NCBI GenBank assembly: GCA_003231035.1
Contig: QIHU01000241.1
Span: 1 to 32,230 of the forward strand
DNA length: 32,230 nt
Direction: 5' to 3'
Origin: Acidobacteriota bacterium
GTDB taxonomy: Bacteria; Acidobacteriota; Thermoanaerobaculia; Multivoradales; SZUA-115
This document shows, piece after piece, positions 2,891-27,598 of the stretch. The notes below the pieces were generated by a model. That model saw nothing but the letters and a program-made list of their open reading frames with translations, was not told where the DNA came from and did no database searches. The translations under genes were made by a program, and so were the position numbers. The first letter of the stretch is position 1. Each line of letters starts with the position of its first letter.

Positions 2891-2931
2891 TCGATCTTGA
2901 CCGTGACCGCCATCGAGCGCCGGAGACACCC

Positions 2932-15500: not shown

Positions 15501-16313
15501 CCGGCGCTCACCGCCACCAGCTTCATTCCCGATTCGCTAGCCTCGCCACCCAACGGCCATCCCCCGGGTGACACCGCCCGTGGCGCCCGTCTTTATCGCA
15601 CCGGCGACCTGTGCCGCCGCCTCGCCGATGGGCGCTTGCTCTTCGTGGGCAGGCGCGACAGCCAAGTCAAGGTACGCGGCTTCCGCATCGAGCTGGGGGA
15701 GGTCGAGGCGGCGGTGGAGCATCATCCTGGGGTCGCGGCCGCGGTCGCGGCGGTCCACCGGAGCGAGGCCGACGGTGAGGCTCAGTTGGTGGCCTACTTC
15801 GTGGCCCGGCCGCAAGCACCCGGTGGCGCGCCCCGGGTGGGCGCCTTGCGCGCCGCCCTGCGCGAGCAACTGCCCGACTACATGATTCCCTCGCTCTTCA
15901 TCCTGCTAGAAGAGCTACCCCTAACCCCCAACGGCAAGGTGGATCGCAAGAATCTGCCGAACCCGGAATTGGAACGTTCCACCCTTGGGACGGCCTACGA
16001 GCCACCCCGAGGCGAAGTTGAGGAGGCGGTGGCCGCGATGTGGCGAGAAGTGCTGCGGCTGGACCAAGTGGGCCGTCACGACCGTTTCTTCGATATCGGT
16101 GGCCACTCCTTGATGGCGATGCAGATCCTCTCCCGGGTCACCCGGCGTTTCGGGGTCGAGCTGCCGCTGCGGGCGGTGTTCGAGAAGCTGACGGTCGCCG
16201 CTCTTTCCGAGTTGATCGTGACCACCGAATTTGCCGACACCGACGAAGAGCTGCTGAGCGAACTGATGAAGGAACTCGACGATGGGTCCACACAAGGAGA
16301 GCTCGATGGCTGA
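9591..16313 (+). CDS. Bimodular NRPS: C-A(basic, Arg/Lys-like)-T-C-A(Gly)-T
   Basis: 2240-aa ORF whose start overlaps the upstream stop (ATGA). C motifs HHIVSDGWS and HHIVSDGVS with LCL-type LELPTDRPR / LDLPLDRPR. Two A domains with A3, A5, A7, A8 and A10 motifs; two T domains IGGHSL. Confidence 0.96.
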   Translation: MSEAMSDHRSELVNLTRDEKLALLSRLSRQRQASSSLPDFSGGNESYPLTFSQERLLFLHHLEGGVNVHTQFRAMWLDGPLDLAALDAAWVEIVTRHEALRTRFEGGGEEARQVVAPPPETVVEFVDLEELPAEQLRAAAQELAASKAREPFDLEAGPVLRVTLVRMGREEHALIVGLHHIVSDGWSRGLLLAEMAALYDAFTGGGPSPLPPVRAQLGAFARWQRRRMSGERLQAELDFWSARLRGAPPRLELPTDRPRRGLVTPRGGIESLELPAEVADGLRRLARRAGATPFMAMLALYDAFLFRYSGKREVVVGLPVASRDHTELETAIGCFASTFVQRIQGAVDGSFNDLLNRVKGEISAVLPHAEVPFEKVVEAVAPQRDFSHNPVFQVMFALQEVGEDRFTLAGLEVSSLVVERAMANVDLTLELVDAGGRGALRGFFDYALDLFDATTIQRMVGHLGRLAESIVASPDSPLSRLPILAPEERQELLTGWAAPPSGELLPPVHLRFAAGAQEWGDAVAMVDGDRLLSYTELDRRANRLARLLRQRGVGADVPVGVCFARSTELMICLLAVLKAGGAYLPLDPTYPRQRLELMIEDSQTTLVLSEGEAARRLPKASVGSSAPQLLLLDRGPFGILHEVEARSAEALEPVSGLDNLAYLIYTSGSTGKPKAVAVPHRGLTHHASALRARLRLAPGKRFLYSASISFDVAAEEIYPTWLSGATLEILPPGPFPSLADLQGLIEQRRLNTINLPTPYWHEWVSELKRTRATVPSSLDSVLVGTEQASAERLIEWLELVGERPAWINAYGPTEATVSATTFIPRSADAEGMTRVPIGQPIEGARAYILDPHFEPLPIGLPGELFLAGPGVVRGYLRRPALTAAAFVPNPFAELAGQRLYATGDRARYRLGGNIEFLGRGDDQVKIRGFRIELGEISEGLRSHPNVADCAVLVATQAGGGRLIAYVVVDPTDPTSGAELTSHLAARLPAYMVPEIRVVADLPLTSAGKVDRLKLATMAARREEAEAETVAPSGPLEEAVAAIWCEVLATEEVGADDDFFEIGGHSLLATRIIARLKQVLDVEIGLPAFFEARTVVALSVAVAQARTAGKNSSPPIVPVPREGGVVCSFAQQRQWFLHQLLPDNVANNIPQLLAFRGALQVAALQRSLAGLVRRHEVLRTTFAMVEEGTNAGQPMQFVAPPERAATVALPVVDLSRISDRLGLAQGEAVAQRLATVESLRPFNLATGPLLRAHLLRLSGDYQLLYFCTHHIVSDGVSIGLTLRDWVTLYAAEVSGRPARLPELPIHYADYAAWQRTWLEGEALEEQLDYWRAALDGAPGALDLPLDRPRPAVEEARGKRHYLRLGEEDSAALAALGRRHGATSFMTLAAFFNVLLSRWSGARDVVIGWPIGGRNSAEVENLVGFLANILVMRTDLSGSPSSLDVLSRVRKGALGAYDHQELPFEQLVKELHPERDLSRHPIFQSFFVLHHPAGQLPEVEGVEVTVPSFDNGTSRLDLLLSLMHTQGGLHGFFEFNSDLFDATTIDRLSRQFKTLVAAAVATPRRPVEELPLLDAAARHQLVRGWNDSVVPLVAEATEFTVPIHRLVEQRAAATPLREAVRFHNQSLTYAELDARANRWAHSLLEHEVMGRPVAVALERSLELVVALLAVLKAGGAYLPLDPAFPSARLDYMVRDSGARTLLTEPGLRHLFLAAEEEAEREGKPLRVIEVEPGYEGLPEPLAEVELPEVDPAQLAYLIYTSGSTGLPKGVEVPHAAVVNLLTSMAAAPGLDANDTLLAITTVAFDIHALEIWLPLIRGARIQLADGESAADGVLLRRLLEDSEANVMQATPATWRALLAAGWTGGRGLRALCGGEALAADLALQVGERVGSLVNVYGPTETTVWSALEFVQPPGAASHRAESSTFSATPSIGRPIGNTQLYVVDERLEPVPVGVIGELLIGGDGVVRGYHARPALTATSFIPDSLASPPNGHPPGDTARGARLYRTGDLCRRLADGRLLFVGRRDSQVKVRGFRIELGEVEAAVEHHPGVAAAVAAVHRSEADGEAQLVAYFVARPQAPGGAPRVGALRAALREQLPDYMIPSLFILLEELPLTPNGKVDRKNLPNPELERSTLGTAYEPPRGEVEEAVAAMWREVLRLDQVGRHDRFFDIGGHSLMAMQILSRVTRRFGVELPLRAVFEKLTVAALSELIVTTEFADTDEELLSELMKELDDGSTQGELDG

Positions 16314-19300
16314 GCCCGAGATTGCCCGACGTATTGCCGACCTGCCTCCCGAAGAACGGGCGAAGCTTTTCGAGAAGGTGCTCCTGCGCCGAAAACCTCG
16401 ATCCGAGACACCTTCGCGACCGCCGCTCCTGCGCCACAGTCGCGACGACTTCAGCTTTCTCTTGTCCTTTGCCCAACAGCGGCTCTGGTTCCTCAATCTC
16501 TACGAACCGGACAGCCCCGAGTACAACGTGCCGCAGACTTTCCGCATCGAGGGAGTTCTCGACCCCGAGTTGCTGGAGGGTTCGCTCAACGGGGTGGTCT
16601 CGCGGCACGAAAGTCTGCGCACCACCTTCGTCTCCCAAGAGGGGACGCCGTACCAAAGGGTGGCACCCGCGATGCGGGTGGCGCTGCCTTGCCTCGATCT
16701 AACCCACCAGCCCGAGGAGGAGGCGTGGGAGGTGGCCATGGAGGGCTGCCGGGAGGACGCGGCTCAGCCCTTCGATCTAGCGGCCGGTCCGCTCCTGCGC
16801 GGCCGGCTCTATCGGGTGGCCGAGGAGGGCTGGGTGCTTTACTTGAACGTGCATCACATCGCCAACGACCAGTGGTCGATGGGGGTCTTGGCGCGCGAGC
16901 TGGCCGAGTTCTACGCCGCCGGTGCCGAGAAACGCGCGCCCGATCTTCCCGAACTACCGGTGCAGTATCTCGACTACGGCCTGTGGCAACGCGAATGGCT
17001 CTCCGGCGAAGAGCTGGAGCGCCAGGTCGATTTTTGGCGCCGCCGTTTGGGTTCCGTGCCACCGCTCGACCTGCCCACCGACCGCCCCCGGCCGGCGGTT
17101 CGAACCTTCGCGGGAAATACCTTGCCCTTGGCGCTGGCGCCGGGGCTGGGTTCGCAGCTGGGAAAACTCGCCGCGGCCGAGTCGGCGACCCTCTTCATGG
17201 TCCTGTCGGCGGCCTTCAAAGCGCTCCTTCACCACTACACGGCGCAAGAGGATTTCGCCGTGGGGACGCTGATCGCCAACCGCCGTTTGCCTCAGGTGGA
17301 AGACTTGATTGGCTTCTTCGCCAACACCCTGGTGCTGCGCACCGACCTAGCGGGCGATCCGCCCTTTAGCCAGCTCATCGAACGCGAGCGGGAGGTGGCG
17401 CTCGATGCTTTCGCCCACCAAGACTTGCCCTTCGAGAAGTTGATCGACGAGCTCAACCCGCCGCGCGACACCTCGCGCACGCCGTTGTGCCAGGCGATGC
17501 TGATTCTGCTCAACGCACCCGGCGAGCCCCTCCACCTTCCCGGCGCCGAGCTGGCCCCCGTGGCGCTCGACAACCGCACTTCCAAGATGGAGATGACCCT
17601 CTATCTGGCGGGTGAGGGCGATGGGTTGGGTGGCTACCTCGAATACAACCGCGATCTCTTCGATCGCGCCACGATCGAGCGCTTCCTAGGCCATTTCCAC
17701 ACCCTGCTCGAAAGCTGCGTCGCCGATCCGAATCTGCCCCTGTCGCGGGTCCCGCTCCTCGCCGAGGAGGAACGCCGCCACTTATTGTTCGACCTCAACG
17801 ACACCACCACTCCCGCGCCCACCGCGCCGCTCCACCACCTGCTAGCGGCGCGTTGCGCGGCATCGCCGGAGGCGACGGCGGTGGAAGTGGCGGGTGAGAA
17901 GCTGACCTACGGCGATCTGGAGCGGCGCTCCAACCGGCTGGCGCGCTACCTGGCGAGGCGCGGGGTCGGCCCGGAGGTGCTGGTGGGCCTCTGTGTCGAG
18001 CGCTCCCTCGACATGGTGGTGGCACTGCTCGCGGTGCTCAAGGCGGGTGGGGGCTACGTGCCGCTCGATCCCGAGTATCCGGCCTCGCGGTTGGAACGGA
18101 TGCTGGGGGACTCGCGGGCGCCGGTGGTGGTGACCCAGACGGCCTTGATCGAGAAACTTCCACCGAACACAGCGACGATCGTCACTCTTGACAAGGATGG
18201 CGATGGCGCCGCGATCGCGGCGGAAAGCGCCGAGCCCTTCGACGGCGGCGCGAGCCTTTCGAGTTTGGCCTACGTGATCTACACCTCTGGCTCCACCGGA
18301 ACCCCCAAGGGGGTGCAGATCTCGCATTTGGCGCTGGTCAATTTTCTGCGCTCGATGGAGCGCAGCCCTGGATTTACCGCCGCCGACAGCCTGCTGGGGG
18401 TGACCACGCTCTCCTTCGATATCGCCGGGTTGGAACTCTACCTACCGCTCCTCGCCGGAGGCCGCCTGGTGCTCGCCGCTCGCGACGAGGCGCAGGCCGG
18501 CGAGCGGCTAGTCGAACTCCTCGACCGGTCCGAGATCACCGTGATGCAGGCCACCCCGGCGACCTGGCGTCTGTTGCTGGGCGCCGGCTGGTCCGGCGAT
18601 CCGAACTTGAAGGTACTGTGCGGCGGTGAGGCACTGCCCGAAGATCTAGCGGCGGAGTTGGTCGCCAAGGCCGGCGAGGTGTGGAATGTCTACGGGCCGA
18701 CCGAGGCGACCATCTGGTCGACCCTCGACCGGCTGGAGCCGGTGGGTAAGGTCTCTATCGGTCTGCCGCTCGACAACACGCAGGTTCACTTGCTGGCGCC
18801 GGGCTCGCTGCTTCCGGTGCCGCTGGGAGTGCCCGGTGAGCTGCTGATCGGCGGTCTAGGGCTGGCTCGCGGTTACCGGGGACTGCCGGCGATGACCGCG
18901 GACCGGTTCGTTCCCGACCCGCACTCGGAGGTTGCCGGCGCCCGCTTGTACCGCACCGGCGACCTCGCCCGTCGCTTTCCTGACGGCCGCTTGGAGTGCT
19001 TGGGCCGGATCGACCACCAGGTCAAGGTGCGCGGCTTCCGCATCGAGTTGGGCGAAATCGAGGTGGCTCTGGCGAGCCACGATGGCGTCGCCCAGACGGT
19101 GGTGCTGGCCCGTGAGGATACGCCGGGCAGCAAACGGCTGGTCGCCTACTGGACCGGCACGGCCGGCTCCCAGCCTCCGTCGACGGCCGACCTCAAGAAC
19201 TGGATCCAGCAGAGTCTGCCCGACTACATGGTGCCCGCCTTCTTCGTCCCCCTCGACGAGCTGCCGCTCACCCCCAACGGCAAGACCGATCGGCTAGCCC

Positions 19301-20976
19301 TGCCGGCCCCCGACGCCTCGGCGGCGCAGGCCCTCTACGTGGCGCCGCGCAACGCCGACGAAGAGAAGATGGCCGACATCTGGGCCGATTTGTTGAAGCT
19401 CGAGCGGGTGGGGGTCCACGACGATTTCTTCGACCTCGGCGGGGACTCGCTCCTCGTCGTGCGGGTGGTGACCAAGGCGGCCAAGGCCGGCGTCACGATC
19501 ACCACCAAACAGGCTTTCGAACATAAGACGATCTCCGAACTGATCGCGGCGGCGGGCTCGGTGGACATCATCGCCGAGCAGGCAGCGGTGGTCGGCCATC
19601 ACCCGTGGACCCCGGCGCAACTGCACTTCCAAGAGCTGCGCCACCCCAACGAACACTTTCACTCGACTGGAAACCTGTTGGAGATTCGCCAGGGAGCGAT
19701 CGATCCGGTTGTGGTGCGACGGGCGCTCCAGGTGATGCAGCGCCACCACGACACCCTGCGCATGCGCATGGTCGAGGAGCCTTACGCGGGCCAAACCGAC
19801 GTCGGCGCCTACCAGCTGGGGGCGAACCGCCATCTGATCATCGAGCCGGTGGGTAGACTCCCGGCATTGCGCTACGTCGATCTGAGCGGCTTGCCCCAGG
19901 CGGAGCACGAAACCCACATGACCACCGTCGCCCGAGAGACGGTGACCGGCTACGACCTGGCTCGCGGGCCGCTGTTCAGGGCGGTGATCTTCGAGCTGGA
20001 ACCGGGTTGCCCACGACAGCTCTTCTTGAGCGCTCATTTCTACCCGGTCGACCTCGGCTCCTGGATACCGCTGCTCGATGATTTCGACACCGTCTACGGC
20101 CAACTTCTCGCCGGAGAAGAGGTGCAACTTCAACCTAAGACCACCTCGGCGGTCGATTGGGCCAAGCGGCTCCAAGAACGCGCCCTCAACCTGCCGGACG
20201 CGGAGCGCAAATACTGGCTGGAGCAAGCACCGCTCAAACCGACCCGCATTCCCATGGACCACCAGACCGGCCCCAACGATTGGACGGCGGCGCGGGTGGA
20301 ACGGATGGTGCTCTCGGCCGAGGACACCGAGATTCTGCTCAGCCACGCGCCCCGCGCTTTCGGAGTGCAGATCGACGGCATCATGGTCACCGCGATCCTG
20401 GAGGCTTTCGCCGAGTGGGTGAAGGCGCGGGAGTTCCCGATCGTGCTCCTCGGTCACGGTCGCGAGCCGCTCTACGACGATATGGACATCAGCCGCACCG
20501 TGGGTTGGTTCAACAGTCTCTATCCGATCAACGTCGTTCTCGGCCCGGAGGCGCAGTTCGACGACGTCGCCCGTTTCGTCAACCGGCAGCTACGCGAAGT
20601 TCCGCACGGAGGAATGGGCTACGGCAGCCTCAAGTACCTGGGCGGCGATCAGGAGGCGGCTCGCCATCTGCGCGCCGCGGCCTGGCCACAGATCTTCTTC
20701 AACTATGTCGGTTCGGACAACTCGAAGGAGTTGCGTTCCTTCAAGAAGCTCGAGCAGTTCGGCGGCTACTTCCTGGACGTCCACACCCAACGGCTCACCC
20801 CGATTGTGCTCACCGGGATGATCGTCGAAGACGAGTTGCTCCTCAAGTGGGAGTGGAGCGTGAATCTTCACAACCAGGAAACGATTCTGGCGCTTCTCAA
20901 GCGCTGTCGTGAGGTGATCGATTGGTTCCTCACCGAATATCGCCGCCGGGAGGCGGCCAGGGGGGTGGTCTTGTGA
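16306..20976 (+). CDS. Terminal NRPS: C-A(Gly)-T-epimerase-like domain lacking catalytic residues; no thioesterase
   Basis: ATG 16306 preceded by AGGAG and overlapping the upstream stop. C motif HHIANDQWS; A domain FDIAGLE...NVYGPTEATIWS; T domain GGDSL at 19438-19452. Last domain has E-family motifs GHGRE, SRTVGWF, VPHGGMGYG and FNYVG, but the active-site segment reads HFYPVDLGSW. Confidence 0.95.
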   Translation: MAEPEIARRIADLPPEERAKLFEKVLLRRKPRSETPSRPPLLRHSRDDFSFLLSFAQQRLWFLNLYEPDSPEYNVPQTFRIEGVLDPELLEGSLNGVVSRHESLRTTFVSQEGTPYQRVAPAMRVALPCLDLTHQPEEEAWEVAMEGCREDAAQPFDLAAGPLLRGRLYRVAEEGWVLYLNVHHIANDQWSMGVLARELAEFYAAGAEKRAPDLPELPVQYLDYGLWQREWLSGEELERQVDFWRRRLGSVPPLDLPTDRPRPAVRTFAGNTLPLALAPGLGSQLGKLAAAESATLFMVLSAAFKALLHHYTAQEDFAVGTLIANRRLPQVEDLIGFFANTLVLRTDLAGDPPFSQLIEREREVALDAFAHQDLPFEKLIDELNPPRDTSRTPLCQAMLILLNAPGEPLHLPGAELAPVALDNRTSKMEMTLYLAGEGDGLGGYLEYNRDLFDRATIERFLGHFHTLLESCVADPNLPLSRVPLLAEEERRHLLFDLNDTTTPAPTAPLHHLLAARCAASPEATAVEVAGEKLTYGDLERRSNRLARYLARRGVGPEVLVGLCVERSLDMVVALLAVLKAGGGYVPLDPEYPASRLERMLGDSRAPVVVTQTALIEKLPPNTATIVTLDKDGDGAAIAAESAEPFDGGASLSSLAYVIYTSGSTGTPKGVQISHLALVNFLRSMERSPGFTAADSLLGVTTLSFDIAGLELYLPLLAGGRLVLAARDEAQAGERLVELLDRSEITVMQATPATWRLLLGAGWSGDPNLKVLCGGEALPEDLAAELVAKAGEVWNVYGPTEATIWSTLDRLEPVGKVSIGLPLDNTQVHLLAPGSLLPVPLGVPGELLIGGLGLARGYRGLPAMTADRFVPDPHSEVAGARLYRTGDLARRFPDGRLECLGRIDHQVKVRGFRIELGEIEVALASHDGVAQTVVLAREDTPGSKRLVAYWTGTAGSQPPSTADLKNWIQQSLPDYMVPAFFVPLDELPLTPNGKTDRLALPAPDASAAQALYVAPRNADEEKMADIWADLLKLERVGVHDDFFDLGGDSLLVVRVVTKAAKAGVTITTKQAFEHKTISELIAAAGSVDIIAEQAAVVGHHPWTPAQLHFQELRHPNEHFHSTGNLLEIRQGAIDPVVVRRALQVMQRHHDTLRMRMVEEPYAGQTDVGAYQLGANRHLIIEPVGRLPALRYVDLSGLPQAEHETHMTTVARETVTGYDLARGPLFRAVIFELEPGCPRQLFLSAHFYPVDLGSWIPLLDDFDTVYGQLLAGEEVQLQPKTTSAVDWAKRLQERALNLPDAERKYWLEQAPLKPTRIPMDHQTGPNDWTAARVERMVLSAEDTEILLSHAPRAFGVQIDGIMVTAILEAFAEWVKAREFPIVLLGHGREPLYDDMDISRTVGWFNSLYPINVVLGPEAQFDDVARFVNRQLREVPHGGMGYGSLKYLGGDQEAARHLRAAAWPQIFFNYVGSDNSKELRSFKKLEQFGGYFLDVHTQRLTPIVLTGMIVEDELLLKWEWSVNLHNQETILALLKRCREVIDWFLTEYRRREAARGVVL

Positions 20977-21048
20977 ATCGGCTCACCCTCGCGGACACAG
21001 TCCCTGTACAACTTCAACCCTTTGGACAGCGTTTCATGGAGGCGGACC

Positions 21049-22434
21049 ATGACGGAACAACCTAGTCAACGTAGCTTTCGAATTTTCGGCATTATCTGGG
21101 TAGGTCAACTGATCTCGTTGATCGGCTCCGGCATGACAACGTTCACGTTGGCGATCTGGATCTTGAGAAATACCGAGCACGTCACCAACTACACCCTGGC
21201 CATTGTGCTCGCCAGCCTTCCCGGAACTCTGCTGGCGCCTTTCGCCGGTGCTCTGGTCGATCGCTGGAGCCGGCGGCTGGTGATGATCGGCTCCGACATC
21301 GCTCCGGCGATCGTCACCTTGACCGTTGCCTGGCTACTGATGCAGAACAATCTACAGCTTTGGCATGTTTACATCGGTGTGGTGGTGGGGTCGATCGCGC
21401 AGACCTTTCAGTGGCCAGCCTACATGGCCTCGATCACCTTGCTGGTGCCGAAGGAGCAATACGGGCGGGTGAACGGCATGCTCCAGTTTGGCCAGGCGGC
21501 CACCACCATCGCGGCACCCGCTCTCGCCGGCTTGTTGCTCTCCTTCATGAGTCTTTCGAAGGTGCTCTTGATCGACTTCGTGACCTTCCTCTTCGCGGTC
21601 ACTACGCTGGCCATCGTGCGCATCCCACAGCCGCCTGAAAGCGAGGCCGGCAAGGCTTCGAAAGGGTCAATCTGGCAGGAGGTCAAGTTTGCCTGGAACT
21701 ACATCCGGGAGCGCAAAGGGTTGTTCAATTTGTTGATGTTCTTTGCCGTGGTCAACTTGGCGGCGAGCGTGACCGGAGTTGCGTTGATGCCGATGGTTCT
21801 TGGCTTTGCCTCGGAAGCAGGGGTTGGGACGATCATGTCGATGGTCGGAGTCGGGTTGCTGATCGGTGGCTTCATCATGACCGCCACCGGTGGGCCGAAG
21901 AAGAAGATCTACGGGGTGCTCGGTGCCGGTGCCATGTACAGCATCTGTTTCGTGATGATCGGACTCAAACCGTCGATTTGGCTGGTCGGTGCCGGGGTGG
22001 TCCTCTGGTACACCGTCCTGCCGATCATGAATGCCAGCAGCCAGACCATTTGGATGAGCAAGGTGGAGCCGGATCTGCAGGGTCGCGTCTTCTCGATGCG
22101 GCGCATGATGGCGCAGTTCACCGTGCCGATCGGAGATTTCTCGGCCGGCCCGCTGGCCGACAAGATCTTCAACCCGCTCCTCATCGCTGGCGGACCGTTG
22201 GCCGCCTCGGTGGGAGGCGTGATCGGGGTGGGGCCCGGCCGTGGCATTGGCCTGATGTTCCTGGTCATGGCGATCGTGCCTGGCCTTGCCGCCCTCTGGG
22301 GTTTTCTGAATCCCAGGGTGCGCAATGTTGAAACTGAAATACCGGACCACTCGGCGGCGCCAGAAGCGGCGCCGGATGTCGAGGAGACCGGCGGAGAAAC
22401 GAGTGCAACCGATGCCGCGGAGGCGGGAGCTTAA
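21049..22434 (+). CDS. MFS efflux transporter (DHA3 / macrolide-efflux-like), probable product exporter
   Basis: GGAGG upstream of ATG 21049. Multiple hydrophobic helices; F..IWVGQLISLIGSGMT start, MFS motif A GALVDRWSRR, and DLQGRVFS in the C-terminal half. Confidence 0.9.
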   Translation: MTEQPSQRSFRIFGIIWVGQLISLIGSGMTTFTLAIWILRNTEHVTNYTLAIVLASLPGTLLAPFAGALVDRWSRRLVMIGSDIAPAIVTLTVAWLLMQNNLQLWHVYIGVVVGSIAQTFQWPAYMASITLLVPKEQYGRVNGMLQFGQAATTIAAPALAGLLLSFMSLSKVLLIDFVTFLFAVTTLAIVRIPQPPESEAGKASKGSIWQEVKFAWNYIRERKGLFNLLMFFAVVNLAASVTGVALMPMVLGFASEAGVGTIMSMVGVGLLIGGFIMTATGGPKKKIYGVLGAGAMYSICFVMIGLKPSIWLVGAGVVLWYTVLPIMNASSQTIWMSKVEPDLQGRVFSMRRMMAQFTVPIGDFSAGPLADKIFNPLLIAGGPLAASVGGVIGVGPGRGIGLMFLVMAIVPGLAALWGFLNPRVRNVETEIPDHSAAPEAAPDVEETGGETSATDAAEAGA

Positions 22435-22447
22435 GAGGATGAGAATT

Positions 22448-24736
22448 ATGAGATTTGGAGAGATAGGCAGAGTGTGGAACATCGCGTTGACTCACTGCCT
22501 GTGGCTAGCGATTCTGACCATGATGGCGGTGCCGGTGGTGGCACAGAAGGACGAAGCGGCAGCCGTCCCGGCGCAACCGTTGCGACACTTCGAGGTCACC
22601 CAGGCGAGTTCGCCGATCAAGATTGACGGCCTGCTCGACGAAGCGGCCTGGGAGACGGCGGTGGTCATCGATCTGCCCTATGAGTGGTTCCCGAGCGACA
22701 ACGGCACTCCGCCGGTGAGGACCGAGTCGTTGGTCACCTACGACCGCACCAATATTTACATCGCTTTTCGCGCCTTCGATCCGAATCCCGAGGAGATCCG
22801 GGCCCACTTGATGGACCGCGACGCGATCGGCCTCTTCATCCAAGACGATCATGTGGGCTTCACCCTCGATACTTTCAATGACGAACGGCGCGCCTTCCAC
22901 TTCCGGGTCAACCCTCTGGGGGTGCAGATCGACGCCGTCTTTTCAGAACGCACCGCGCGCGAGGACTACTCGGTCGACCTCATCTGGGACTCGGCCGGCC
23001 GGGTCCATGCCGAGGGGTACGTCGTCGAGGTGGCCATTCCGCTCAAGCAACTCCGCTTTTCTCGCAGCGACGAGGCGCAGACCTGGGGCTACGAGGCATT
23101 TCGTAGCTATCCACGCAGCGTTCGCCATCGGATTACCTCGCGTTTTACCGATCGTGAGAAGGACTGCCTGCTGTGTCAAGAGAATAAGATCAGCGGCTTC
23201 CAACAACTGAAGACCGGCAACAATCTTGAGATTACCCCCACCGTGACGGGGATCAGCACGGATAGCGTGGACACCTTTCCTGACGGCCGTCTTCAGAACG
23301 TCGTGGAGGACCTAGAGGCCGGTGTTTCGTTGCGTTGGGGGGTCACTCCGAACATCACCGTCAGCGCCACGGTCAATCCTGACTTTTCACAGGTCGAAGC
23401 CGATGTGGCGCAGCTCGATATCAACAACAGATTCGCCCTCTTCTTTCCCGAAAAGCGCCCCTTCTTCCTAGAAGGGTCGGACCTCTTTCAGACGCCTCTC
23501 AACGCGGTCTTTACCCGCACCGTGGCCAACCCCCGCTGGGGCACCAAGCTCTCCGCCAAGGAGGGTAAGAACACCTTGGGTCTCTTCGTCACCGACGATC
23601 GGATTACCAATATTCTGATTCCAGGCAACCAAGGTTCGAGCTTTGCCTTTCTGGACGATGATCTGACCACCGGTGTGGTCCACTACACCCGAGAGGTGGG
23701 GAAGTTCTCGGCGATTGGCCTGCTGTACACCGGGCGCGAGGGCGACGGCTATTTCAACCGTGTGGGCGGGATCGATGGTTTCTTGCGTTTCACCCCTTCC
23801 GACACCGTACGGGTTCAGTACCTGCGCTCGGATACGCTCTATCCCGTGGAGGTGGCGGACCGTTTCGGTCTGCCCACTGACCCTTTCGACGGCGACGCCT
23901 TCTCCGTGCGCTACGACCACTTCGCCAAACTTTGGAGGGGATTCGTGCGCTACGAGAATCTCGATCCAGAGTTCCGTGCCGATGCTGGCTTTATCCCGAG
24001 GGTCGATGTCAAGACTTCCGAGGTAGGTTACGAGCGTGTGGTCTATGGCGAGCAGGGCGACTGGTATGCACAAATGAGTTTCGGCGGTCGCGCCCTGCGG
24101 ACTGAGGATCACAGCGGTCTACTGACCGATGAGGAGATCGAAGTTTTCGGCATTTACCAAGGGCCGAAGCAGTCCTTCGTTCGGCTACAACTCTTCGACA
24201 ACCAGGAGTTCTTCGGCGGGGTGACCTACGACATTCAAAAGGCGCGGCTGTTTGGGCAGTTCACCCCCAGCGGCAACGTGCGCGCCTCGCTGGCGATTTG
24301 GTCGGGTGACGAGGTCGATTTCGCCAATGGCCGACCCGGCGATCAGGTCTTGATCAGTCCCAACGTGCTGATGCGTTTGGGACGTCACCTGTCGGTGGAA
24401 GTCGACTATCTGCGCCGGGAGCTCGACGTGGAGGGAGGGCGGCTGTTCACCGCCGAGCTAGCGCAAGCCAATATCATCTACAACTTCAACGTGCGCTCGT
24501 TCGTGCGTGGAATCTTCCAGTACCAGAAGATCGCTCGCGACCCGTCTCTGTACACCCGAACGGTGGTAGAGGAGAACAGCGACTTCTTCGTTCAATTCCT
24601 CTACTCCTACAAGATCAACCCACAGACCGTCCTCTTCGTTGGCTATACCGACACCCGCGCGGGGGTGGAGGACGTCTCTTTGCAGCAGACCGATCGCACC
24701 TTCTTCCTGAAACTGGGCTATGCCTTCCTCTACTGA
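22448..24736 (+). CDS. Exported outer-membrane protein: N-terminal CBM9-like domain plus DUF5916-like beta-barrel
   Basis: Signal-peptide-like N-terminus (..LWLAILTMMAVPVVA|QKD). IKIDGLLDEAAW is typical of CBM9-like starts; TVNPDFSQVEAD and FFPEKRPFFLEG match my recollection of the DUF5916 family. C-terminal amphipathic strand FFLKLGYAFLY. Start at 22439 or 22448; the ORF-track start 22325 overlaps the MFS gene. Confidence 0.8.
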   Translation: MRFGEIGRVWNIALTHCLWLAILTMMAVPVVAQKDEAAAVPAQPLRHFEVTQASSPIKIDGLLDEAAWETAVVIDLPYEWFPSDNGTPPVRTESLVTYDRTNIYIAFRAFDPNPEEIRAHLMDRDAIGLFIQDDHVGFTLDTFNDERRAFHFRVNPLGVQIDAVFSERTAREDYSVDLIWDSAGRVHAEGYVVEVAIPLKQLRFSRSDEAQTWGYEAFRSYPRSVRHRITSRFTDREKDCLLCQENKISGFQQLKTGNNLEITPTVTGISTDSVDTFPDGRLQNVVEDLEAGVSLRWGVTPNITVSATVNPDFSQVEADVAQLDINNRFALFFPEKRPFFLEGSDLFQTPLNAVFTRTVANPRWGTKLSAKEGKNTLGLFVTDDRITNILIPGNQGSSFAFLDDDLTTGVVHYTREVGKFSAIGLLYTGREGDGYFNRVGGIDGFLRFTPSDTVRVQYLRSDTLYPVEVADRFGLPTDPFDGDAFSVRYDHFAKLWRGFVRYENLDPEFRADAGFIPRVDVKTSEVGYERVVYGEQGDWYAQMSFGGRALRTEDHSGLLTDEEIEVFGIYQGPKQSFVRLQLFDNQEFFGGVTYDIQKARLFGQFTPSGNVRASLAIWSGDEVDFANGRPGDQVLISPNVLMRLGRHLSVEVDYLRRELDVEGGRLFTAELAQANIIYNFNVRSFVRGIFQYQKIARDPSLYTRTVVEENSDFFVQFLYSYKINPQTVLFVGYTDTRAGVEDVSLQQTDRTFFLKLGYAFLY

Positions 24737-24767
24737 GGCGGCGGCGCGACGGCACTGGAGACTGACG

Positions 24768-26441
24768 ATGAACAAACCCATCCTCGATTGCATTCTGGTT
24801 GGCCACAACGAAGGAAATTACCAAGACTTCGTCGAACGGCAACGGATGACCTCCTCGACGACTGGAGCCTACGGCGAGGTGATGACCAACTCGATCCTGT
24901 TCAAGGGGCGCAGGATCACCTACATGGACTTGATGAACTATGGCATTGGTCGGGCGACCGGACGACGGTCAAAACTATCGAGCTTCGGGCCGACCAACCT
25001 CGCTTCGTGCTATCTGCGGAACTTCCTGCGCGGTTGCGGTCTGTCGGCCGAGATCGTCAATACTTTTCAACCTCAGAAGGCTCTGCTCGAAGAGTTCCTC
25101 GACGAGCCGCATCGGGTGGTTGCGATCACCACGACCTTCTACGTCGAGCCAAGCCCCATTCAGGAGATCGTGCAGTTCGTGCGTGAGCGGAGCCCCCAGA
25201 CGACGATTGTGGTGGGTGGGCCGCATGTGTTCAATATCTGCGAGGGTAACGACGCCAAGACGCAGGACTTCATCTTCGAGACCATCGGCGCGGACATCTA
25301 TGTGCAGGAGTCGCAGGGAGAACTTACCCTGTCGAGGATTCTGATGGCTCTGCGTTCCTCGCGGGACCCGGACCTTTCGAAAATCGAAAACCTGATCTAT
25401 CGCGAAGATGGCGCCTATGTGCGCACCACCCGGTTGAGCGAAGAGAATGTGATGAATGAAAACTCGATCGACTGGAGCCAGTTCGATTCGAACTACCTGG
25501 AGCCGATGACGCTGACGCGCACGGCGCGAAGTTGCGCCTTTTCTTGCTCCTTCTGCAACTATCCGCGCATGGCGGGCGCGCTGAGTCTGACCGATATCGA
25601 TGTGGTTGAGCGCGAGTTGAGGCAACTGGAGGAGATCGGCGTGCGCTCGGTGCATTTCATCGACGACACCTTCAACGTGCCGATCCGGCGGTTCAAGGAG
25701 CTGCTGCGGATGATGATCCGCAACCGGTTCACTTTTCGCTGGATGTCCTTCCTGCGCGCCGGCAACGCCGACGCCGAGGCGATTGACCTGATGGCCGAGA
25801 GCAACTGCTTCGGCTCTCTGCTGGGAATCGAATCGGGAGATTCCCAGGTGCTGACAATGATGAACAAGAAGGCTACCATCGAGCTCTACGAACAGGGCAT
25901 CGCCAGACTCAAGACCAACGGCATTCTCGCTTACGGCATGTTCTTCATGGGATTTCCCGGGGAAACGCAGCAGACGGCGCGCAACACCTTCGAGTTTATT
26001 CAGCGCACCGCCCCCGATTTCTACATGACCGGACTCTGGTATCACGATACCTTGGCGCCGATTCACGAACGGGCCCAAGAGCTGGGGATTCGCGGCGCTG
26101 GCTATAACTGGAGTCACAAGACGATGAACTGGCGCGAGGCGGCGCAGTGGGTGCACTACATCTACAACAACATTGATCGATCGACGATCATGCCGCTGAC
26201 CGGTTTCAGCTTCGAGACCCTGCCCTACTTGCTCGGCCTCGGCATGCGGCTGGAAAAGATCAAGGAGTTCGCCCGTTTGGCGCACGGCATGTTGGTCGCC
26301 ACCCTGGACGACGAGCCGCAGGATTTCAGCCGCCAAGAGAGGGAATTGGTCCGCATCTGCGGTGAACTCTACGGCGACGATCTCGCCCACGTCGCCAAGG
26401 AGGCTCTGGCCACGGCGCCACCGATCGAGGTCGCGGTTTGA
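24768..26441 (+). CDS. Cobalamin-dependent (class B) radical SAM methyltransferase, PhpK-family-like
   Basis: GGAG upstream of ATG 24768. CxxxCxxC motif RTARSCAFSCSFCNYP at 25533-25556. N-terminal B12-binding-like region (VAITTTFYV, IVVGGPHV, QGELTL), then FIDDTFNVP, LGIESG..VL..MNK and MGFPGET. The overall motif pattern resembles PhpK-family proteins by recognition only, not by a search. Confidence 0.85.
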   Translation: MNKPILDCILVGHNEGNYQDFVERQRMTSSTTGAYGEVMTNSILFKGRRITYMDLMNYGIGRATGRRSKLSSFGPTNLASCYLRNFLRGCGLSAEIVNTFQPQKALLEEFLDEPHRVVAITTTFYVEPSPIQEIVQFVRERSPQTTIVVGGPHVFNICEGNDAKTQDFIFETIGADIYVQESQGELTLSRILMALRSSRDPDLSKIENLIYREDGAYVRTTRLSEENVMNENSIDWSQFDSNYLEPMTLTRTARSCAFSCSFCNYPRMAGALSLTDIDVVERELRQLEEIGVRSVHFIDDTFNVPIRRFKELLRMMIRNRFTFRWMSFLRAGNADAEAIDLMAESNCFGSLLGIESGDSQVLTMMNKKATIELYEQGIARLKTNGILAYGMFFMGFPGETQQTARNTFEFIQRTAPDFYMTGLWYHDTLAPIHERAQELGIRGAGYNWSHKTMNWREAAQWVHYIYNNIDRSTIMPLTGFSFETLPYLLGLGMRLEKIKEFARLAHGMLVATLDDEPQDFSRQERELVRICGELYGDDLAHVAKEALATAPPIEVAV

Positions 26442-26464
26442 TCGTCGCGAGCCGGGCCGCAACC

Positions 26465-27598
26465 ATGGCCAACCAGAAGATCGATCACTGGCGAGCGCTG
26501 TGGGACGATGCTTATGAGCAACCGGTTGGAGACGGCGATCCGAGCTTGAATCTCGCTGGCTGGACGAGCAGCTACACGGGACTGCCCATCCCACTCGCCG
26601 ATATGCGCGAGTGGGTGGCGGGGACGGTAGGGCGCATCGATTCGCTGACCCCAAGCCGGGTTTTGGAGATCGGCTGCGGTACCGGCATGCTTCTCCTACG
26701 CATCGCCCCGCGCTGCGAGATCTATCGCGGAGTCGACTTCTCGCCGACTTCGCTGGCCTATGTCGCGGAGCAGGTTCGCGTCGCGGGAATCGAGGGGGTG
26801 CGATTGTTCGAGGCCGATGCCGATCAACTCGCTTTGCCGGCTTCGGAACGGTTCGATCTGGTGGTGCTCAACTCGGTAGTCCAGTACTTCCCCGACGCTG
26901 ACTACCTCCGGCGAGTCCTCCTCGGCGCGATCCAACACCTGGCTCCGGGAGGCGCGATCTTCCTCGGCGACCTGCGCAGCCGTTCGCTCCTGCCTTGCTT
27001 TCATTCTTCGCGACTGCTGCGCCAGGCGGACCGCGACCGGCCTCTCTCCGAACTGGCCACGCAGCTGACTGGCGATGTCGCCAGCGAAGTGGAATGGGCT
27101 CTCGACCCGGCCGATCTTGAAGCGATCACCGCGTACCTGCCCGGTTCGGTCTCGATCACCACCCAGCTCAAACGGGGCCGGCGGCGCAATGAGATGACCT
27201 GCTTCCGCTACGATGCCACCCTCCGTCTGGAGCCCGGCCCCGCCTGGGGAAGGGGCGCTGACGGCAAGGACGTAGTCGCGGACTGGCGCGACGAAGCTCT
27301 CTCGGCCAGCATAGTACGCGGTTGGTTGGACGCCAGAGGGGAGGCGGATCTGACCCTTCAAGGCATCCCCAATGCTCGTTTGGTCGAAGAGCTGAAGGCA
27401 CTGCGCTGGCTGCGCAGGCCTGAAGGTCTGGAGACGGTTGGTGAGCTGGCGAGGGCGGTGCGTCGAGCACGTCTGAGCGGCATCGAACCGGAGGATCTCT
27501 GGCGGCTAGAGAGGGGTGGTGTTGGCGACGAGCTGAGGATCGAAGTCGATTGGCAAGCGGATGCCGCTGATCGCTTCCTGGCGCGAGTGAGCCGGTAA
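26465..27598 (+). CDS. Stand-alone SAM-dependent methyltransferase of the NRPS N-methyltransferase domain type
   Basis: Motif I VLEIGCGTG, GVDFS and FDLVVLNSVVQYFP. Also GWTSSYTGLPIP..MREW, LKRG...NEMTCFRYD and IPNARL, which are typical of N-MT domains embedded in A domains. Start ATG 26465, or TTG 26438 overlapping the upstream stop. Confidence 0.9.
   Translation: MANQKIDHWRALWDDAYEQPVGDGDPSLNLAGWTSSYTGLPIPLADMREWVAGTVGRIDSLTPSRVLEIGCGTGMLLLRIAPRCEIYRGVDFSPTSLAYVAEQVRVAGIEGVRLFEADADQLALPASERFDLVVLNSVVQYFPDADYLRRVLLGAIQHLAPGGAIFLGDLRSRSLLPCFHSSRLLRQADRDRPLSELATQLTGDVASEVEWALDPADLEAITAYLPGSVSITTQLKRGRRRNEMTCFRYDATLRLEPGPAWGRGADGKDVVADWRDEALSASIVRGWLDARGEADLTLQGIPNARLVEELKALRWLRRPEGLETVGELARAVRRARLSGIEPEDLWRLERGGVGDELRIEVDWQADAADRFLARVSR

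What the first reader, a model, noticed from the sequence alone, without database searches (positions are those of the whole stretch)
19570..20976. Assembly line ends in an epimerase-fold domain missing both catalytic residues, behind a glycine module
Seen: E-family motifs are well preserved (AEQ..V.G..P.TPAQ, GHGRE, SRTVGWF, VPHGGMGYG.LKYL, FNYVG). However, HHxxxDG reads HFYPVDL (20035-20055) and the catalytic Glu of EGHGRE is Leu (20449). No TE, R or COM-type tail follows, and no separate TE lies in the downstream operon. Established: Gly is achiral, so epimerisation is unnecessary, and inactive C-family domains can serve as enzyme-recruiting platforms (X domain, interface domain). Inference: the domain is repurposed for chain release or for docking the radical SAM enzyme or N-MT.
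Basis: partly seen in the sequence, partly recalled or inferred. Interest (0 to 1): 0.75.

Follow-up and report, generated by a model that had tools for sequence, protein, structure and literature searches.

The report
Disarmed epimerase domain ending NRPS lines
A peptide assembly line ends not in the usual release enzyme but in a conserved, catalytically disarmed copy of an amino-acid-inverting domain, shared by about a hundred lines from soil and marine bacteria, and it probably helps to finish or hand off the peptide.

Summary
The last 468 residues of the NRPS at 16282-20976 form an epimerase-fold domain ("E*"). Phe replaces the catalytic His (HFYPVDL, 20035-20055) and Leu replaces the catalytic Glu (20449-20451). 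It follows a Gly module, and no TE, R or COM tail comes after it.

This is not decay. E* is a single-origin clade: 51 further database proteins and 48 genome loci (39 Acidobacteriota, 9 Rheinheimera/Pseudoalteromonas). All have [HQ][FY]xxxD[VIL][GNA]S and [LV]GHG. All are C-terminal and all sit behind a Gly-code A domain. 45 of 48 are followed by an MFS exporter gene.

Five long-contig relatives have no TE or R domain in or near the cluster. Four of five gammaproteobacterial genomes have no NRPS-embedded TE at all. A second dead E domain in the window (1565-2887, also after Gly, with a COM tail) has decayed heavily, which makes a useful contrast.

The PhpK-like radical SAM gene is in only 1 of 39 relatives and the methyltransferase in 15 of 39, so neither is the conserved partner.

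My best reading (about 0.35) is a base-independent off-loading domain. The rivals are a scaffold for a trans hydrolase or exporter, and an inert cap. I rate it a new variant of a known kind (X, CT, LgrA-type dead E).

The parts
16282..20976 (+). Terminal NRPS subunit, C-A(Gly)-T-E*, 1564 aa
   Evidence: ORF; Pfam Condensation x2, AMP-binding, PP-binding; domain limits by tblastn (C 16432-17796, A 17827-19296, T 19336-19566, E* 19570-20973); A code DILQLGVIWK
19570..20973 (+). E* domain: epimerase fold without the catalytic His and Glu
   Evidence: PF00668 147.3 bits; model pLDDT 77.9 with best Foldseek hits PvdL-E2, TycA-E, TycB3-E and GrsA-E
20035..20055 (+). HFYPVDL in place of HHxxxDG (F1253 at the catalytic His position)
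   Evidence: family pattern [HQ][FY]xxxD[VIL] in 52 of 52
20449..20451 (+). Leu1390 in place of the Glu of EGHGRE
   Evidence: Leu in 50 of 52 and Val in 2 of 52 family members
21022..22434 (+). MFS exporter (Mef(A)/2A0121-like, weaker to EntS), the conserved downstream neighbour
   Evidence: Pfam MFS_1/MFS_3; NCBIfam TIGR00900 1.2e-59, Mef(A) 1.5e-38, EntS 3.5e-12; follows E* in 45 of 48 loci
22439..24736 (+). CBM9/DUF5916 protein with a signal peptide; second conserved neighbour, in Acidobacteriota only (the ORF is listed from 22325; the likely start is M at 22439 or 22448)
   Evidence: Pfam; N-terminus read; present in 32 of 39 acidobacterial loci and 0 of 9 gammaproteobacterial loci
1565..2887 (+). 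E*1: a second, heavily decayed dead E domain after a Gly module, ending in a COM-donor-like tail (…DHFPDAELSSDELESLLAEL). It is the internal, LgrA-type contrast to E*
   Evidence: PF00668 only 27.8-28.8 bits, below cut-off; tree branch length 4.0; 57% identity to its orthologue against 74-89% for the flanking domains; Gly code in the orthologue
24720..26441 (+). PhpK-family B12 radical SAM methyltransferase; a lineage-specific accessory gene, not a conserved partner
   Evidence: TIGR04479 587.5 bits against a cut-off of 600; found in only 1 of 48 related loci
26438..27598 (+). SAM-dependent methyltransferase; accessory gene in a subset of clusters
   Evidence: Pfam; 15 of 39 acidobacterial loci

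Best explanation
SHOWN. The domain belongs to a single-origin, strongly conserved clade of epimerase-fold domains (E*). Every member found lies at the extreme C-terminus of an NRPS, directly behind the carrier domain of a glycine-activating module. The two acid/base residues of epimerases are replaced by hydrophobic look-alikes (His to Phe/Tyr, Glu to Leu/Val), while the other E motifs, the T-E linker and the Asp of HHxxxD are kept. The assembly lines that end in E* have no built-in thioesterase or reductase. The next gene is nearly always an MFS exporter.

INFERRED. E* cannot epimerise and does not need to, because Gly is achiral. It still docks the Gly-loaded carrier domain and takes the peptidyl-Gly-S-phosphopantetheine into the old epimerase tunnel. 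It serves as the line's off-loading station.

My preferred mechanism is that E* releases the chain itself, as fungal CT domains do, but by positioning and not by acid/base catalysis. It would hold the flexible ...X(+)-Gly-Gly thioester so that an internal nucleophile attacks it. That nucleophile could be a side-chain amine or guanidine of one of the cationic residues two or four positions back, giving a C-terminal macrolactam, or it could be water. The product would then leave through the co-transcribed MFS pump. The catalytic step is not shown by any result here.
For: Family and motifs: 51 homologues at 39-89% identity, then a sharp drop to canonical E domains at 34% or less. The second His is absent in 52 of 52 (Phe 34, Tyr 18). 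Leu is present in 50 of 52 and Val in 2. The Asp is present in 52 of 52. 78 positions conserved at 90% or more are shared with canonical E domains.

Single origin and constraint: 57 E* rows form one clade (SH-aLRT 99) on a long stem (0.71) with short inner branches. Mean pairwise identity is 0.55 for E*, against 0.65 for C, 0.70 for A and 0.72 for T in the same 46 proteins. The window's internal dead E domain, which only carries a COM tail, has decayed (branch 4.0, Pfam 28 bits, 57% to its orthologue). E* is therefore under far more constraint than a mere linker needs.

Always terminal: all 52 near-length proteins, the one longer protein that has the motif (P0273, 1 of 39 examined), and 48 of 48 complete genome loci.

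Always after Gly: 60 of 61 A domains have DILQ[LI]G[VLM][IV]W. The last two modules are Gly-Gly in the window, G402, G404, G405, G407 and G408.

No other release device is universal. There is no PF00975 within at least 50 kb in 5 of 5 long-contig relatives, and no PF07993 near the clusters in 5 of 5. tblastn finds no TE within 10 kb either side in 48 of 48 loci. G404 and G405 show complete lines running from loading A-T to E* with nothing after. In G406-G409 every thioesterase hit in the genome is a small free-standing ORF, so no TE-bearing NRPS exists to take the chain over.

Structure: the T-E* didomain model (pLDDT 85) superposes over both domains on the crosslinked TycA PCP-E (TM 0.82/0.85) and holo GrsA PCP-E (0.80/0.83). 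This may partly reflect likeness to structures the predictor has seen.
Against: No replacement catalytic residue was identified. I had no model coordinates, so I could not map the clade-specific polar residues (H1115, D1266, D1269, N1411, N1434, D1479, D1499) onto the tunnel.

One subclade (11 of 52) has Gln-Tyr, so it has no His at all in the motif.

Fungal CT domains keep the His, and its mutation supports a catalytic role (PMC10510592, passage read).

The three gammaproteobacterial clusters I located carry a free-standing thioesterase next to a PPTase gene. Eight of 39 acidobacterial loci carry an alpha/beta-hydrolase with GYSTGG. Either could do the release.

E* is less conserved than the C, A and T domains beside it.

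The window's own genome is fragmented (841 contigs), and the assembly line is cut at the contig start.
Confidence: 0.35

Rival explanations
1. E* is a non-catalytic platform, like the glycopeptide X domain or the siderophore interface domain. It presents the finished peptidyl-Gly-S-T to a trans-acting hydrolase, namely a free-standing TE or alpha/beta-hydrolase, which performs the release.
For: Both catalytic residues are replaced by inert residues of similar shape, the usual signature of a pseudoenzyme scaffold. A free TE lies in the gammaproteobacterial clusters, immediately after the 10-module NRPS gene and next to a PPTase. An alpha/beta-hydrolase with GYSTGG lies in 8 of 39 acidobacterial loci. 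Every genome examined has free TE-like ORFs somewhere.
Against: No hydrolase is a universal neighbour. 31 of 39 acidobacterial loci have none within 10 kb downstream. G401 and G402 have none in 80 kb by tblastn or within at least 50 kb by PF00975. Free type II TEs next to PPTase genes are common editing enzymes even in lines that have their own TE (recalled).
Confidence: 0.25
2. E* is an inert structural cap left over from an ancestral E-COM junction. It is kept only because the terminal T domain needs it to fold or work. Release would be by an unlinked housekeeping thioesterase or would be slow and spontaneous.
For: Dead E domains after Gly modules are known (LgrA; PMC10510592, passage), and a second one lies in this window. 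E* is the least conserved domain of its protein.
Against: The window's truly vestigial dead E (E*1) shows what relaxed selection does: branch 4.0, GHGRE lost, Pfam below cut-off. E* instead keeps 115-133 columns at 90% or more across two phyla, on a long stem followed by a conserved crown.
Confidence: 0.17
3. E* docks the megasynthase to the MFS exporter encoded immediately downstream, so that termination is coupled to export. This could coexist with any of the release mechanisms.
For: The MFS gene follows E* in 45 of 48 loci in two phyla, at -19 to about 100 nt in most. The start codon overlaps the E* gene's end in 4 Rheinheimera loci. The MFS is the best-conserved gene of the neighbourhood, with mean column identity 62%.
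Against: Exporter genes commonly end biosynthetic operons without any physical coupling. In 7 acidobacterial loci the MT gene or the CBM9/DUF5916 gene lies between E* and the MFS. There is no positive evidence of contact.
Confidence: 0.1
4. E* passes the chain to a further NRPS subunit encoded elsewhere, which carries the TE.
For: Canonical terminal E domains do exactly this. The window's own genome has TE-ending NRPS fragments on other contigs (C82, C339).
Against: E* has no COM/TPSDF tail. In G406-G409, 0 of 15 thioesterase hits lie in an ORF longer than 379 aa, so no TE-bearing NRPS exists there. In G404 and G405 the line is colinear from the loading module to E*.
Confidence: 0.05
5. E* recruits the PhpK-like radical SAM enzyme or the methyltransferase.
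For: Both genes lie in the same operon direction in the window and in its 90%-identical relative L004.
Against: The rSAM gene is in 1 of 48 related loci and the MT in 15 of 48, whereas the E* substitutions are universal.
Confidence: 0.03

Closest known systems
Inactive E domain of LgrA (linear gramicidin synthetase, module 2, Gly)
   Same: An epimerase-fold domain at the C-terminus of an NRPS subunit, behind a glycine module, and regarded as inactive (PMC10510592, passage read).
   Different: LgrA's domain sits at a subunit junction and hands the chain to LgrB. Release is by a reductase at the end of LgrD. E* ends the whole line, has no COM tail, and forms its own conserved clade. The window's other dead E (1565-2887) is the true LgrA-type counterpart. 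I did not have an LgrA E sequence to align: it is not among the PDB sequence hits.
X domain of glycopeptide NRPSs (e.g. teicoplanin Tcp12, PDB 4tx2)
   Same: A C/E-superfamily domain in the last module with a crippled active-site motif (HRxxxDD), used as a recruitment platform (PMC11546977, passages).
   Different: The X domain lies between T and TE, recruits P450s, and is not an E-clade member. E* is closest to true E domains (Foldseek ranks 1-13, 25-29% identity) and 4tx2 ranks only 46th at 16% identity. These clusters have no P450 genes and no TE.
Fungal terminal condensation-like (CT) domain (e.g. TqaA)
   Same: A C-superfamily domain that replaces the TE at the end of an assembly line, accepts only the upstream carrier domain, and releases by intramolecular attack (PMC10510592 and PMC11546977, passages).
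   Different: CT keeps the catalytic His (SHxxxD), is fungal, and is derived from C domains, not E domains. E* has Phe/Tyr there and its release activity is unproven.
Canonical E domains (TycA, GrsA, TycB3, PvdL-E2)
   Same: Fold, all seven E motifs in recognisable form, the T-E linker AEQGxVxGxxPxTPxQ, a GGDS-type T domain, and a predicted T docking pose.
   Different: E* lacks both acid/base residues, has no downstream DCL C domain or COM tail, has a Gly substrate, and sits on a separate long-stemmed clade.

Membership tests
NRPS epimerization (E) domain, catalytically competent | E-domain fold and sequence homology | tested here: met
   phmmer to PvdL-E2 1.7e-52 and TycA-E 1.3e-47; Foldseek top 13 hits are all E domains
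NRPS epimerization (E) domain, catalytically competent | Second His of HHxxxDG | tested here: not met
   Phe1253 in the window; Phe or Tyr in 52 of 52 family members
NRPS epimerization (E) domain, catalytically competent | Glu of EGHGRE (its role as the second acid/base is recalled from the TycA-E and GrsA-E literature) | tested here: not met
   Leu1390 in the window; Leu in 50 and Val in 2 of 52
NRPS epimerization (E) domain, catalytically competent | Followed by a DCL C domain in cis or via a COM tail | tested here: not met
   A stop codon comes 30 residues after the fold and there is no TPSDF tail; the next gene is an MFS
LgrA-type inactive E domain after a Gly module | Follows a Gly-activating module and lacks catalytic residues | tested here: met
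   A code DILQLGVIWK; motif changes
LgrA-type inactive E domain after a Gly module | Sits at a subunit junction and hands the chain to the next subunit's C domain | tested here: not met
   Terminal in 48 of 48 loci; no COM tail; no TE-bearing NRPS in G406-G409. It is met by the window's other domain at 1565-2887
X domain (glycopeptide NRPS) | HRxxxDD motif; position between the last T and the TE; P450 genes in the cluster | tested here: not met
   The motif is HFYPVDL; no TE; no P450 among the window ORFs; 4tx2 ranks 46th
Terminal condensation-like (CT) release domain | Last domain of a TE-less assembly line | tested here: met
Terminal condensation-like (CT) release domain | Retained catalytic His (SHxxxD) | tested here: not met
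   [HQ][FY]xxxD in 52 of 52
Terminal condensation-like (CT) release domain | Demonstrated release or macrocyclisation activity | not testable with these tools
   Needs a peptidyl-T release assay
Interface (I) domain of siderophore NRPSs | Lies N-terminal to the partner A domain and recruits a stand-alone beta-hydroxylase (recalled; the original paper was seen only as a cited title in the listing) | tested here: not met
   E* is C-terminal to T. The TauD-type gene is of the VioC/clavaminate-synthase type, is present in only some clusters, and was not found in the window's 92%-complete genome

The most novel reading that the evidence does not exclude
E* is a bacterial chain-release catalyst derived from an epimerase. 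It would off-load a peptidyl-Gly-Gly thioester without the His that every other catalytic member of the condensation superfamily except Cy domains uses, probably forming a C-terminal macrolactam with a cationic side chain. Its action may be physically coupled to the co-transcribed MFS exporter. This would be a fourth solution to NRPS termination, beside TE, R and CT.
Probability: 0.3. Interest if true: 0.8.

Novelty: new variant of a known kind. Interest (0 to 1): 0.6.

Why it matters
How TE-less bacterial NRPS lines release their products is an open question for many orphan clusters, and genome-mining tools flag such lines as incomplete. This work defines a recognisable cassette: C-A(Gly)-T-E* plus MFS. 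The motifs are [HQ][FY]xxxD[VIL][GNA]S and [LV]GHG[RK]E.

The cassette marks the true end of about a hundred assembly lines (51 database proteins and 48 genome loci, which may overlap) in Acidobacteriota, a phylum with almost no characterised natural products. It also occurs in cultured Pseudoalteromonas and Rheinheimera strains, so the question is directly testable at the bench.

If E* releases the chain, it is a new termination logic and a new engineering part. If it is a scaffold, it is a third example, after the X and interface domains, of a dead C-family domain used as a platform.

The window also offers a natural control: a decayed dead E domain in the same assembly line.

Tried and rejected
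1. Co-fold of E* with the downstream MFS, each given as a 16-row alignment: 'no answer', score 0.00 against a mark of 0.32. This counts neither for nor against binding.

2. Representative-library search with the E* domain alone. The top 150 hits were swamped by multi-E megasynthases. Only P0036, P0043 and P0244 were family members, so the search was of little use.

3. Phylum sample of 400 genomes: no hit at E <= 1e-80 apart from the window's own genome. At most 4 candidates per genome were scored, and the search for related loci later found 39 acidobacterial loci, so this is weak evidence of rarity only.

4. I considered release by alpha-hydroxylation of the terminal Gly by the TauD-type dioxygenase, in the manner of myxothiazol (recalled). 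I rejected it for three reasons. The enzyme is closest to clavaminate synthase, VioC and GntD, which hydroxylate Arg-type substrates. It is present in only a subset of clusters. No PF02668 was found in the window's 92%-complete genome.

5. I considered a siderophore reading, based on the EntS-like MFS, the TauD gene, and a TonB receptor near G408. I rejected it as unsupported. The MFS scores far better to Mef(A)/2A0121 than to EntS, and there are no Asp or hydroxamate modules in G404 or G405.

6. The first synteny count was spoiled by a script error that contaminated one query. I redid it and use only.

7. Literature: seven searches and passages of PMC10510592, PMC8949500, PMC10212144, PMC11546977 and PMC11626197 gave no description of a terminal epimerase-fold domain lacking both residues, and none of the Rheinheimera or Pseudoalteromonas cluster. 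The library lacks most subscription journals, so this does not prove that nothing is published.

8. Earlier findings of this scan: nothing related.

9. I could not map the clade-specific residues onto the tunnel because the tools do not return model coordinates.
Full report
OBSERVATION

The window is one whole contig (C3, 32,230 bp) of a fragmented genome: 841 contigs, 4.99 Mb, 92% complete. The ORF at 16282-20976 encodes a 1564-aa NRPS with Pfam Condensation (two stretches), AMP-binding and PP-binding. Its domain limits are C 16432-17796, A 17827-19296, T 19336-19566 and a last C-superfamily domain at 19570-20973.

The translation reads SAHFYPVDLGSW and LLGHGRE.

The phmmer alignments to solved structures place these residues opposite HHlvvDgvSW and EGHGRE of PvdL-E2 (1.7e-52). 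The next hits are TycA-E (1.3e-47) and GrsA-E (1.1e-36).

The protein ends 30 residues after the last strand of the fold, with no TPSDF/COM tail. Forty-six bases later an MFS gene begins. None of the 12 window ORFs has a thioesterase or reductase family. The A domain has the ten-residue code DILQLGVIWK, the glycine code (the code positions are recalled from Stachelhaus 1999 and were anchored on motifs).

THE REST OF THE WINDOW

Upstream lie, in order:
- A-T-E*1 (1-2890)
- C-A-T-C-A-T (2887-9594)
- C-A-T-C-A-T (9591-16313)
- the terminal C-A-T-E*

The last five A codes are DTENIGTVVK, Gly, DVENLGAVSK, Gly, Gly. The two non-Gly codes have acidic residues at positions 3-4, which I read from recall as cationic substrates.

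The line is cut by the contig start. In the 90%-identical relative (G411) it continues at least two more modules upstream.

E*1 (1565-2887) is a second epimerase-like domain, with AAHPLALDESSW, no GHGRE and a COM-donor-like tail DHFPDAELSSDELESLLAEL. It also follows a Gly module: the orthologue's code is DILQLGVVWK, and the window's own A domain, split by a frameshift, reads the same in its two frames. It scores only 27.8-28.8 bits against PF00668, below the cut-off.

Downstream of E* lie:
- an MFS gene
- a signal-peptide CBM9/DUF5916 protein
- a PhpK-family B12 radical SAM enzyme (TIGR04479, 587.5 bits against a cut-off of 600)
- a SAM methyltransferase
- a secreted trypsin-like peptidase on the other strand
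- an amidohydrolase
- an allantoicase

E* IS A CONSERVED FAMILY, NOT A DECAYING DOMAIN

A search of the 5.8-billion-protein collection with residues 1097-1564 gave the window's own protein and 51 others at 39-89% identity over 94-100% of the domain. Forty-five of them are 1530-1640 aa and six are shorter, partial entries. All carry only C, A, T and AMP-binding_C Pfam families. The next hit is a canonical E domain at 34% identity, and the E-value jumps from 1.5e-91 to 2.5e-69.

In the 52 rows (window plus 51):
- The first motif position is His in 41 and Gln in 11.
- The catalytic-His position is Phe in 34 and Tyr in 18, and never His.
- The Asp is invariant.
- The Gly of DG is Ile, Val or Leu.
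- The next residue is Gly in 30, Asn in 18 and Ala in 4.
- The EGHGRE Glu position is Leu in 50 and Val in 2.

Tyr always goes with Asn and Phe with Gly or Ala. This is a single subclade, so it probably reflects one event.

One hundred and thirty-three columns are at least 90% conserved. Seventy-eight of them carry the same residue as canonical E domains. Fourteen are clade-specific, among them H1115 (Trp in E), D1266, D1269, N1411, N1434, D1479 and D1499.

A scan of one genome per species (185,579 species) with an alignment of the domain returned 68 loci. Forty-eight of these have a complete, motif-verified E*: 39 from Acidobacteriota MAGs (Thermoanaerobaculia, Holophagales) and 9 from cultured or uncultured Rheinheimera and Pseudoalteromonas, including P. 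rubra. The gammaproteobacterial loci are 34-36% identical and carry HFMLADIGSW and LGHG[RK]E.

A maximum-likelihood tree of 102 rows puts all 57 E* rows in one clade (SH-aLRT 99) on a stem of 0.71 changes per site. The gammaproteobacterial rows are nested inside the acidobacterial ones (support 100). The tree is midpoint rooted, so the direction of transfer is not shown. The window's E*1 sits on a branch of length 4.0.

Within 46 full-length members the mean pairwise identity is 0.65 (C), 0.70 (A), 0.72 (T) and 0.55 (E*). E*1 is only 57% identical to its orthologue in G411, while the flanking domains are 74-89% identical.

So the same assembly line shows both fates of a dead E domain behind glycine. 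The internal one, needed at most as a COM carrier, is decaying. The terminal one is under strong purifying selection.

E* IS ALWAYS TERMINAL, ALWAYS AFTER GLY, AND NEVER WITH A TE

All 52 near-length proteins end in the domain. Among 39 longer proteins (2738-5000 aa, E <= 1e-60) only one carries the E* motifs, and there too the domain is C-terminal. That search is word-limited, so this is weak evidence.

Sixty of the 61 A domains preceding E* have DILQ[LI]G[VLM][IV]W. The remaining row did not align.

In the 48 genome loci:
- The MFS gene follows in 45: 36 of 39 acidobacterial and 9 of 9 gammaproteobacterial. Two of the three exceptions have 3.2 kb or less of downstream sequence. The gap is usually -19 to about 100 nt.
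- The CBM9/DUF5916 gene is present in 32 of 39 and 0 of 9.
- The methyltransferase is present in 15 of 39.
- A TauD-type gene is present in 8 of 39 downstream, and also upstream in G403-G405.
- A 474-aa alpha/beta-hydrolase with GYSTGG is present in 8 of 39.
- The radical SAM gene is present in 1 of 39 (L004).
- A TE was found by tblastn in 0 of 48 within 10 kb on either side.

In five relatives with contigs of 1.25-8.4 Mb:
- No PF00975 match lies within at least 50 kb of E*. The nearest is a broken free-standing copy about 54 kb downstream in G401.
- No PF07993 match lies nearer than about 70 kb, and that one is weak, in G404.

Eighty-kilobase reconstructions show complete colinear lines:
- G404: TauD/DUF4350 | A-T-C-A-T | (C-A-T)2 | (C-A-T)2 | C-A-T-E* | MFS | hydrolase | DUF5916
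- G405: the same plan with one more module
- G402: more than 20 modules

These MAGs are long-read assemblies with some frameshifts, so I called domains by tblastn in six frames.

THE GAMMAPROTEOBACTERIAL VERSION

In G407 and G408 a 9-10-thousand-residue NRPS on the opposite strand, A-T-(C-A-T)9, is followed by a free 255-267-aa thioesterase. In G407 a PPTase gene comes next.

The E* operon begins with a TubC_N docking domain: dock-C-A-T | (C-A-T)2 | (C-A-T)2 | C-A-T-E* | MFS, followed by a HlyD gene. The equivalent Rheinheimera locus L047 shows the full MFS | HlyD | ABC | MacB/FtsX series. E* therefore ends a line of about 16 modules.

In G406-G409 all 15 thioesterase hits in the genomes lie in ORFs of 218-379 aa. 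No TE-bearing NRPS subunit exists that could take the chain from E*.

The window's own genome cannot be judged. It has 57 C-domain matches scattered over small contigs and two TE-ending NRPS fragments.

STRUCTURE

- The E* model (11-row alignment) has pLDDT 77.9 and pTM 0.81. Its 13 best Foldseek hits are all E domains (PvdL-E2, TycA, TycB3, GrsA, BacC) at 25-29% identity. The teicoplanin X domain ranks 46th at 16% identity.
- The T-E* didomain model (26 rows) has pLDDT 85 and pTM 0.83. It superposes over both domains on the crosslinked TycA PCP-E (TM 0.82/0.85, rmsd 4.0) and holo GrsA PCP-E (0.80/0.83).
- This fits retained docking of the carrier domain at the tunnel mouth. The predictor may have learnt that pose from those entries, so I count it as weak support.
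- No coordinates are returned, so I could not see which conserved residues line the tunnel.

WHAT IT MOST LIKELY DOES

Shown:
- E* lacks the epimerase acid/base pair.
- It has no chiral substrate.
- It is under selection.
- It is the last domain of TE-less and R-less lines.
- Its only universal companions are its own C-A(Gly)-T module and the MFS gene.

Inferred: it has a role in termination.

I prefer direct, base-independent off-loading (0.35), because E* is the only universal candidate at the terminus. The conserved Gly-Gly end gives the flexibility that ring closure or water access needs. Like fungal CT domains, E domains accept only the upstream carrier domain (recalled).

Against this reading:
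- CT domains keep the His.
- One subclade of E* has no His at all in the motif.
- Free hydrolases exist in part of the clusters.

The rivals are:
- a scaffold for a trans hydrolase (0.25)
- an inert cap (0.17)
- exporter docking (0.10; this may coexist with the others)
- hand-over to another subunit (0.05)
- rSAM or MT recruitment (0.03)

The TauD-type enzyme is of the clavaminate-synthase/VioC/GntD kind. It more likely supplies a hydroxylated Arg-type building block than acts in release. No PF02668 match was found in the window's 92%-complete genome.

COMPARISON WITH WHAT IS KNOWN

The closest precedent for a dead E behind Gly is LgrA, but that domain sits at a subunit junction, like the window's E*1. 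The closest precedents for a dead or altered C-family domain in the last module are the X domain (HRxxxDD, recruits P450s) and the fungal CT domain (SHxxxD, releases by cyclisation). E* fails a defining feature of each; see the membership table.

The reviews I read in passages list the subtypes LCL, DCL, starter, Cy, E, dual E/C, X and CT, and no E-derived terminal type. Seven full-text searches found no description of this domain or of the Rheinheimera or Pseudoalteromonas cluster. One paper states that few natural products are known from Rheinheimera (PMC11626197, passage). The library omits most subscription journals.

I therefore file E* as a new variant of a known kind, namely non-canonical members of the condensation superfamily. 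Its function is open and can be tested in cultured strains.

Noticed in passing
window 1-2890 (break near 520-620): The first A domain is split between two reading frames: 1-618 and 530-2890 overlap by 89 nt. In the 90%-identical relative G411 the orthologous A-T-C-A-T-E*1 is one continuous ORF of 2088 aa. The window therefore has either an assembly error or a recent frameshift that would break the assembly line.
   Followed up: partly
window 1565-2887: This is a second dead epimerase-like domain (AAHPLALDESSW, no GHGRE) with a COM-donor-like tail, also behind a Gly module. It is heavily diverged and is an LgrA-type junction domain.
   Followed up: yes
window 24720-27598: A PhpK-family B12 radical SAM methyltransferase (TIGR04479, 587.5 bits, just under the cut-off) overlaps a SAM methyltransferase gene in an NRPS operon. 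There are no phosphonate genes in the window. The rSAM gene is shared only with the closest relative (L004). Its substrate is unknown.
   Followed up: partly
window 22325-24736; loci L004-L051: A signal-peptide protein with CBM9 and DUF5916 domains follows the MFS gene in 32 of 39 acidobacterial E* loci. In the gammaproteobacterial loci a HlyD/ABC/MacB efflux set takes its place. It may be an outer-membrane export or uptake component of the pathway. No function is known for it.
   Followed up: partly
L088:8371-9795 (G404), also L005, L028, L029, L031, L035, L036, L038, L040: A 474-aa cytoplasmic-looking alpha/beta-hydrolase has a GYSTGG nucleophile elbow, no Pfam hit, and a weak NCBIfam match to PHA depolymerase catalytic domains. 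It is present in 8 of 39 E* clusters and in two copies in G404 and G405.
   Followed up: partly
L093:17964-19874 (G405), L089:14176-16161 (G404), G403 region: A fusion of a DUF4350 domain to a clavaminate-synthase/VioC-like Fe/2OG dioxygenase sits at the head of, or inside, the NRPS operon. Shorter TauD-only homologues lie downstream in 8 other loci.
   Followed up: partly
L096-L101 (G407 Rheinheimera sp., G408 Pseudoalteromonas sp.): Cultured marine gammaproteobacteria carry an uncharacterised two-operon NRPS of about 16 modules: 10 modules plus a free TE and PPTase on one strand, and a TubC_N-docked 6-module line ending in E* on the other. The E* domain nests inside the acidobacterial clade, which suggests transfer between phyla.
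   Followed up: partly
window 27728-29482 (-): A secreted trypsin-like peptidase has a C-terminal Cys-rich somatomedin-B-like domain. It is shared only with relative L004.
   Followed up: no
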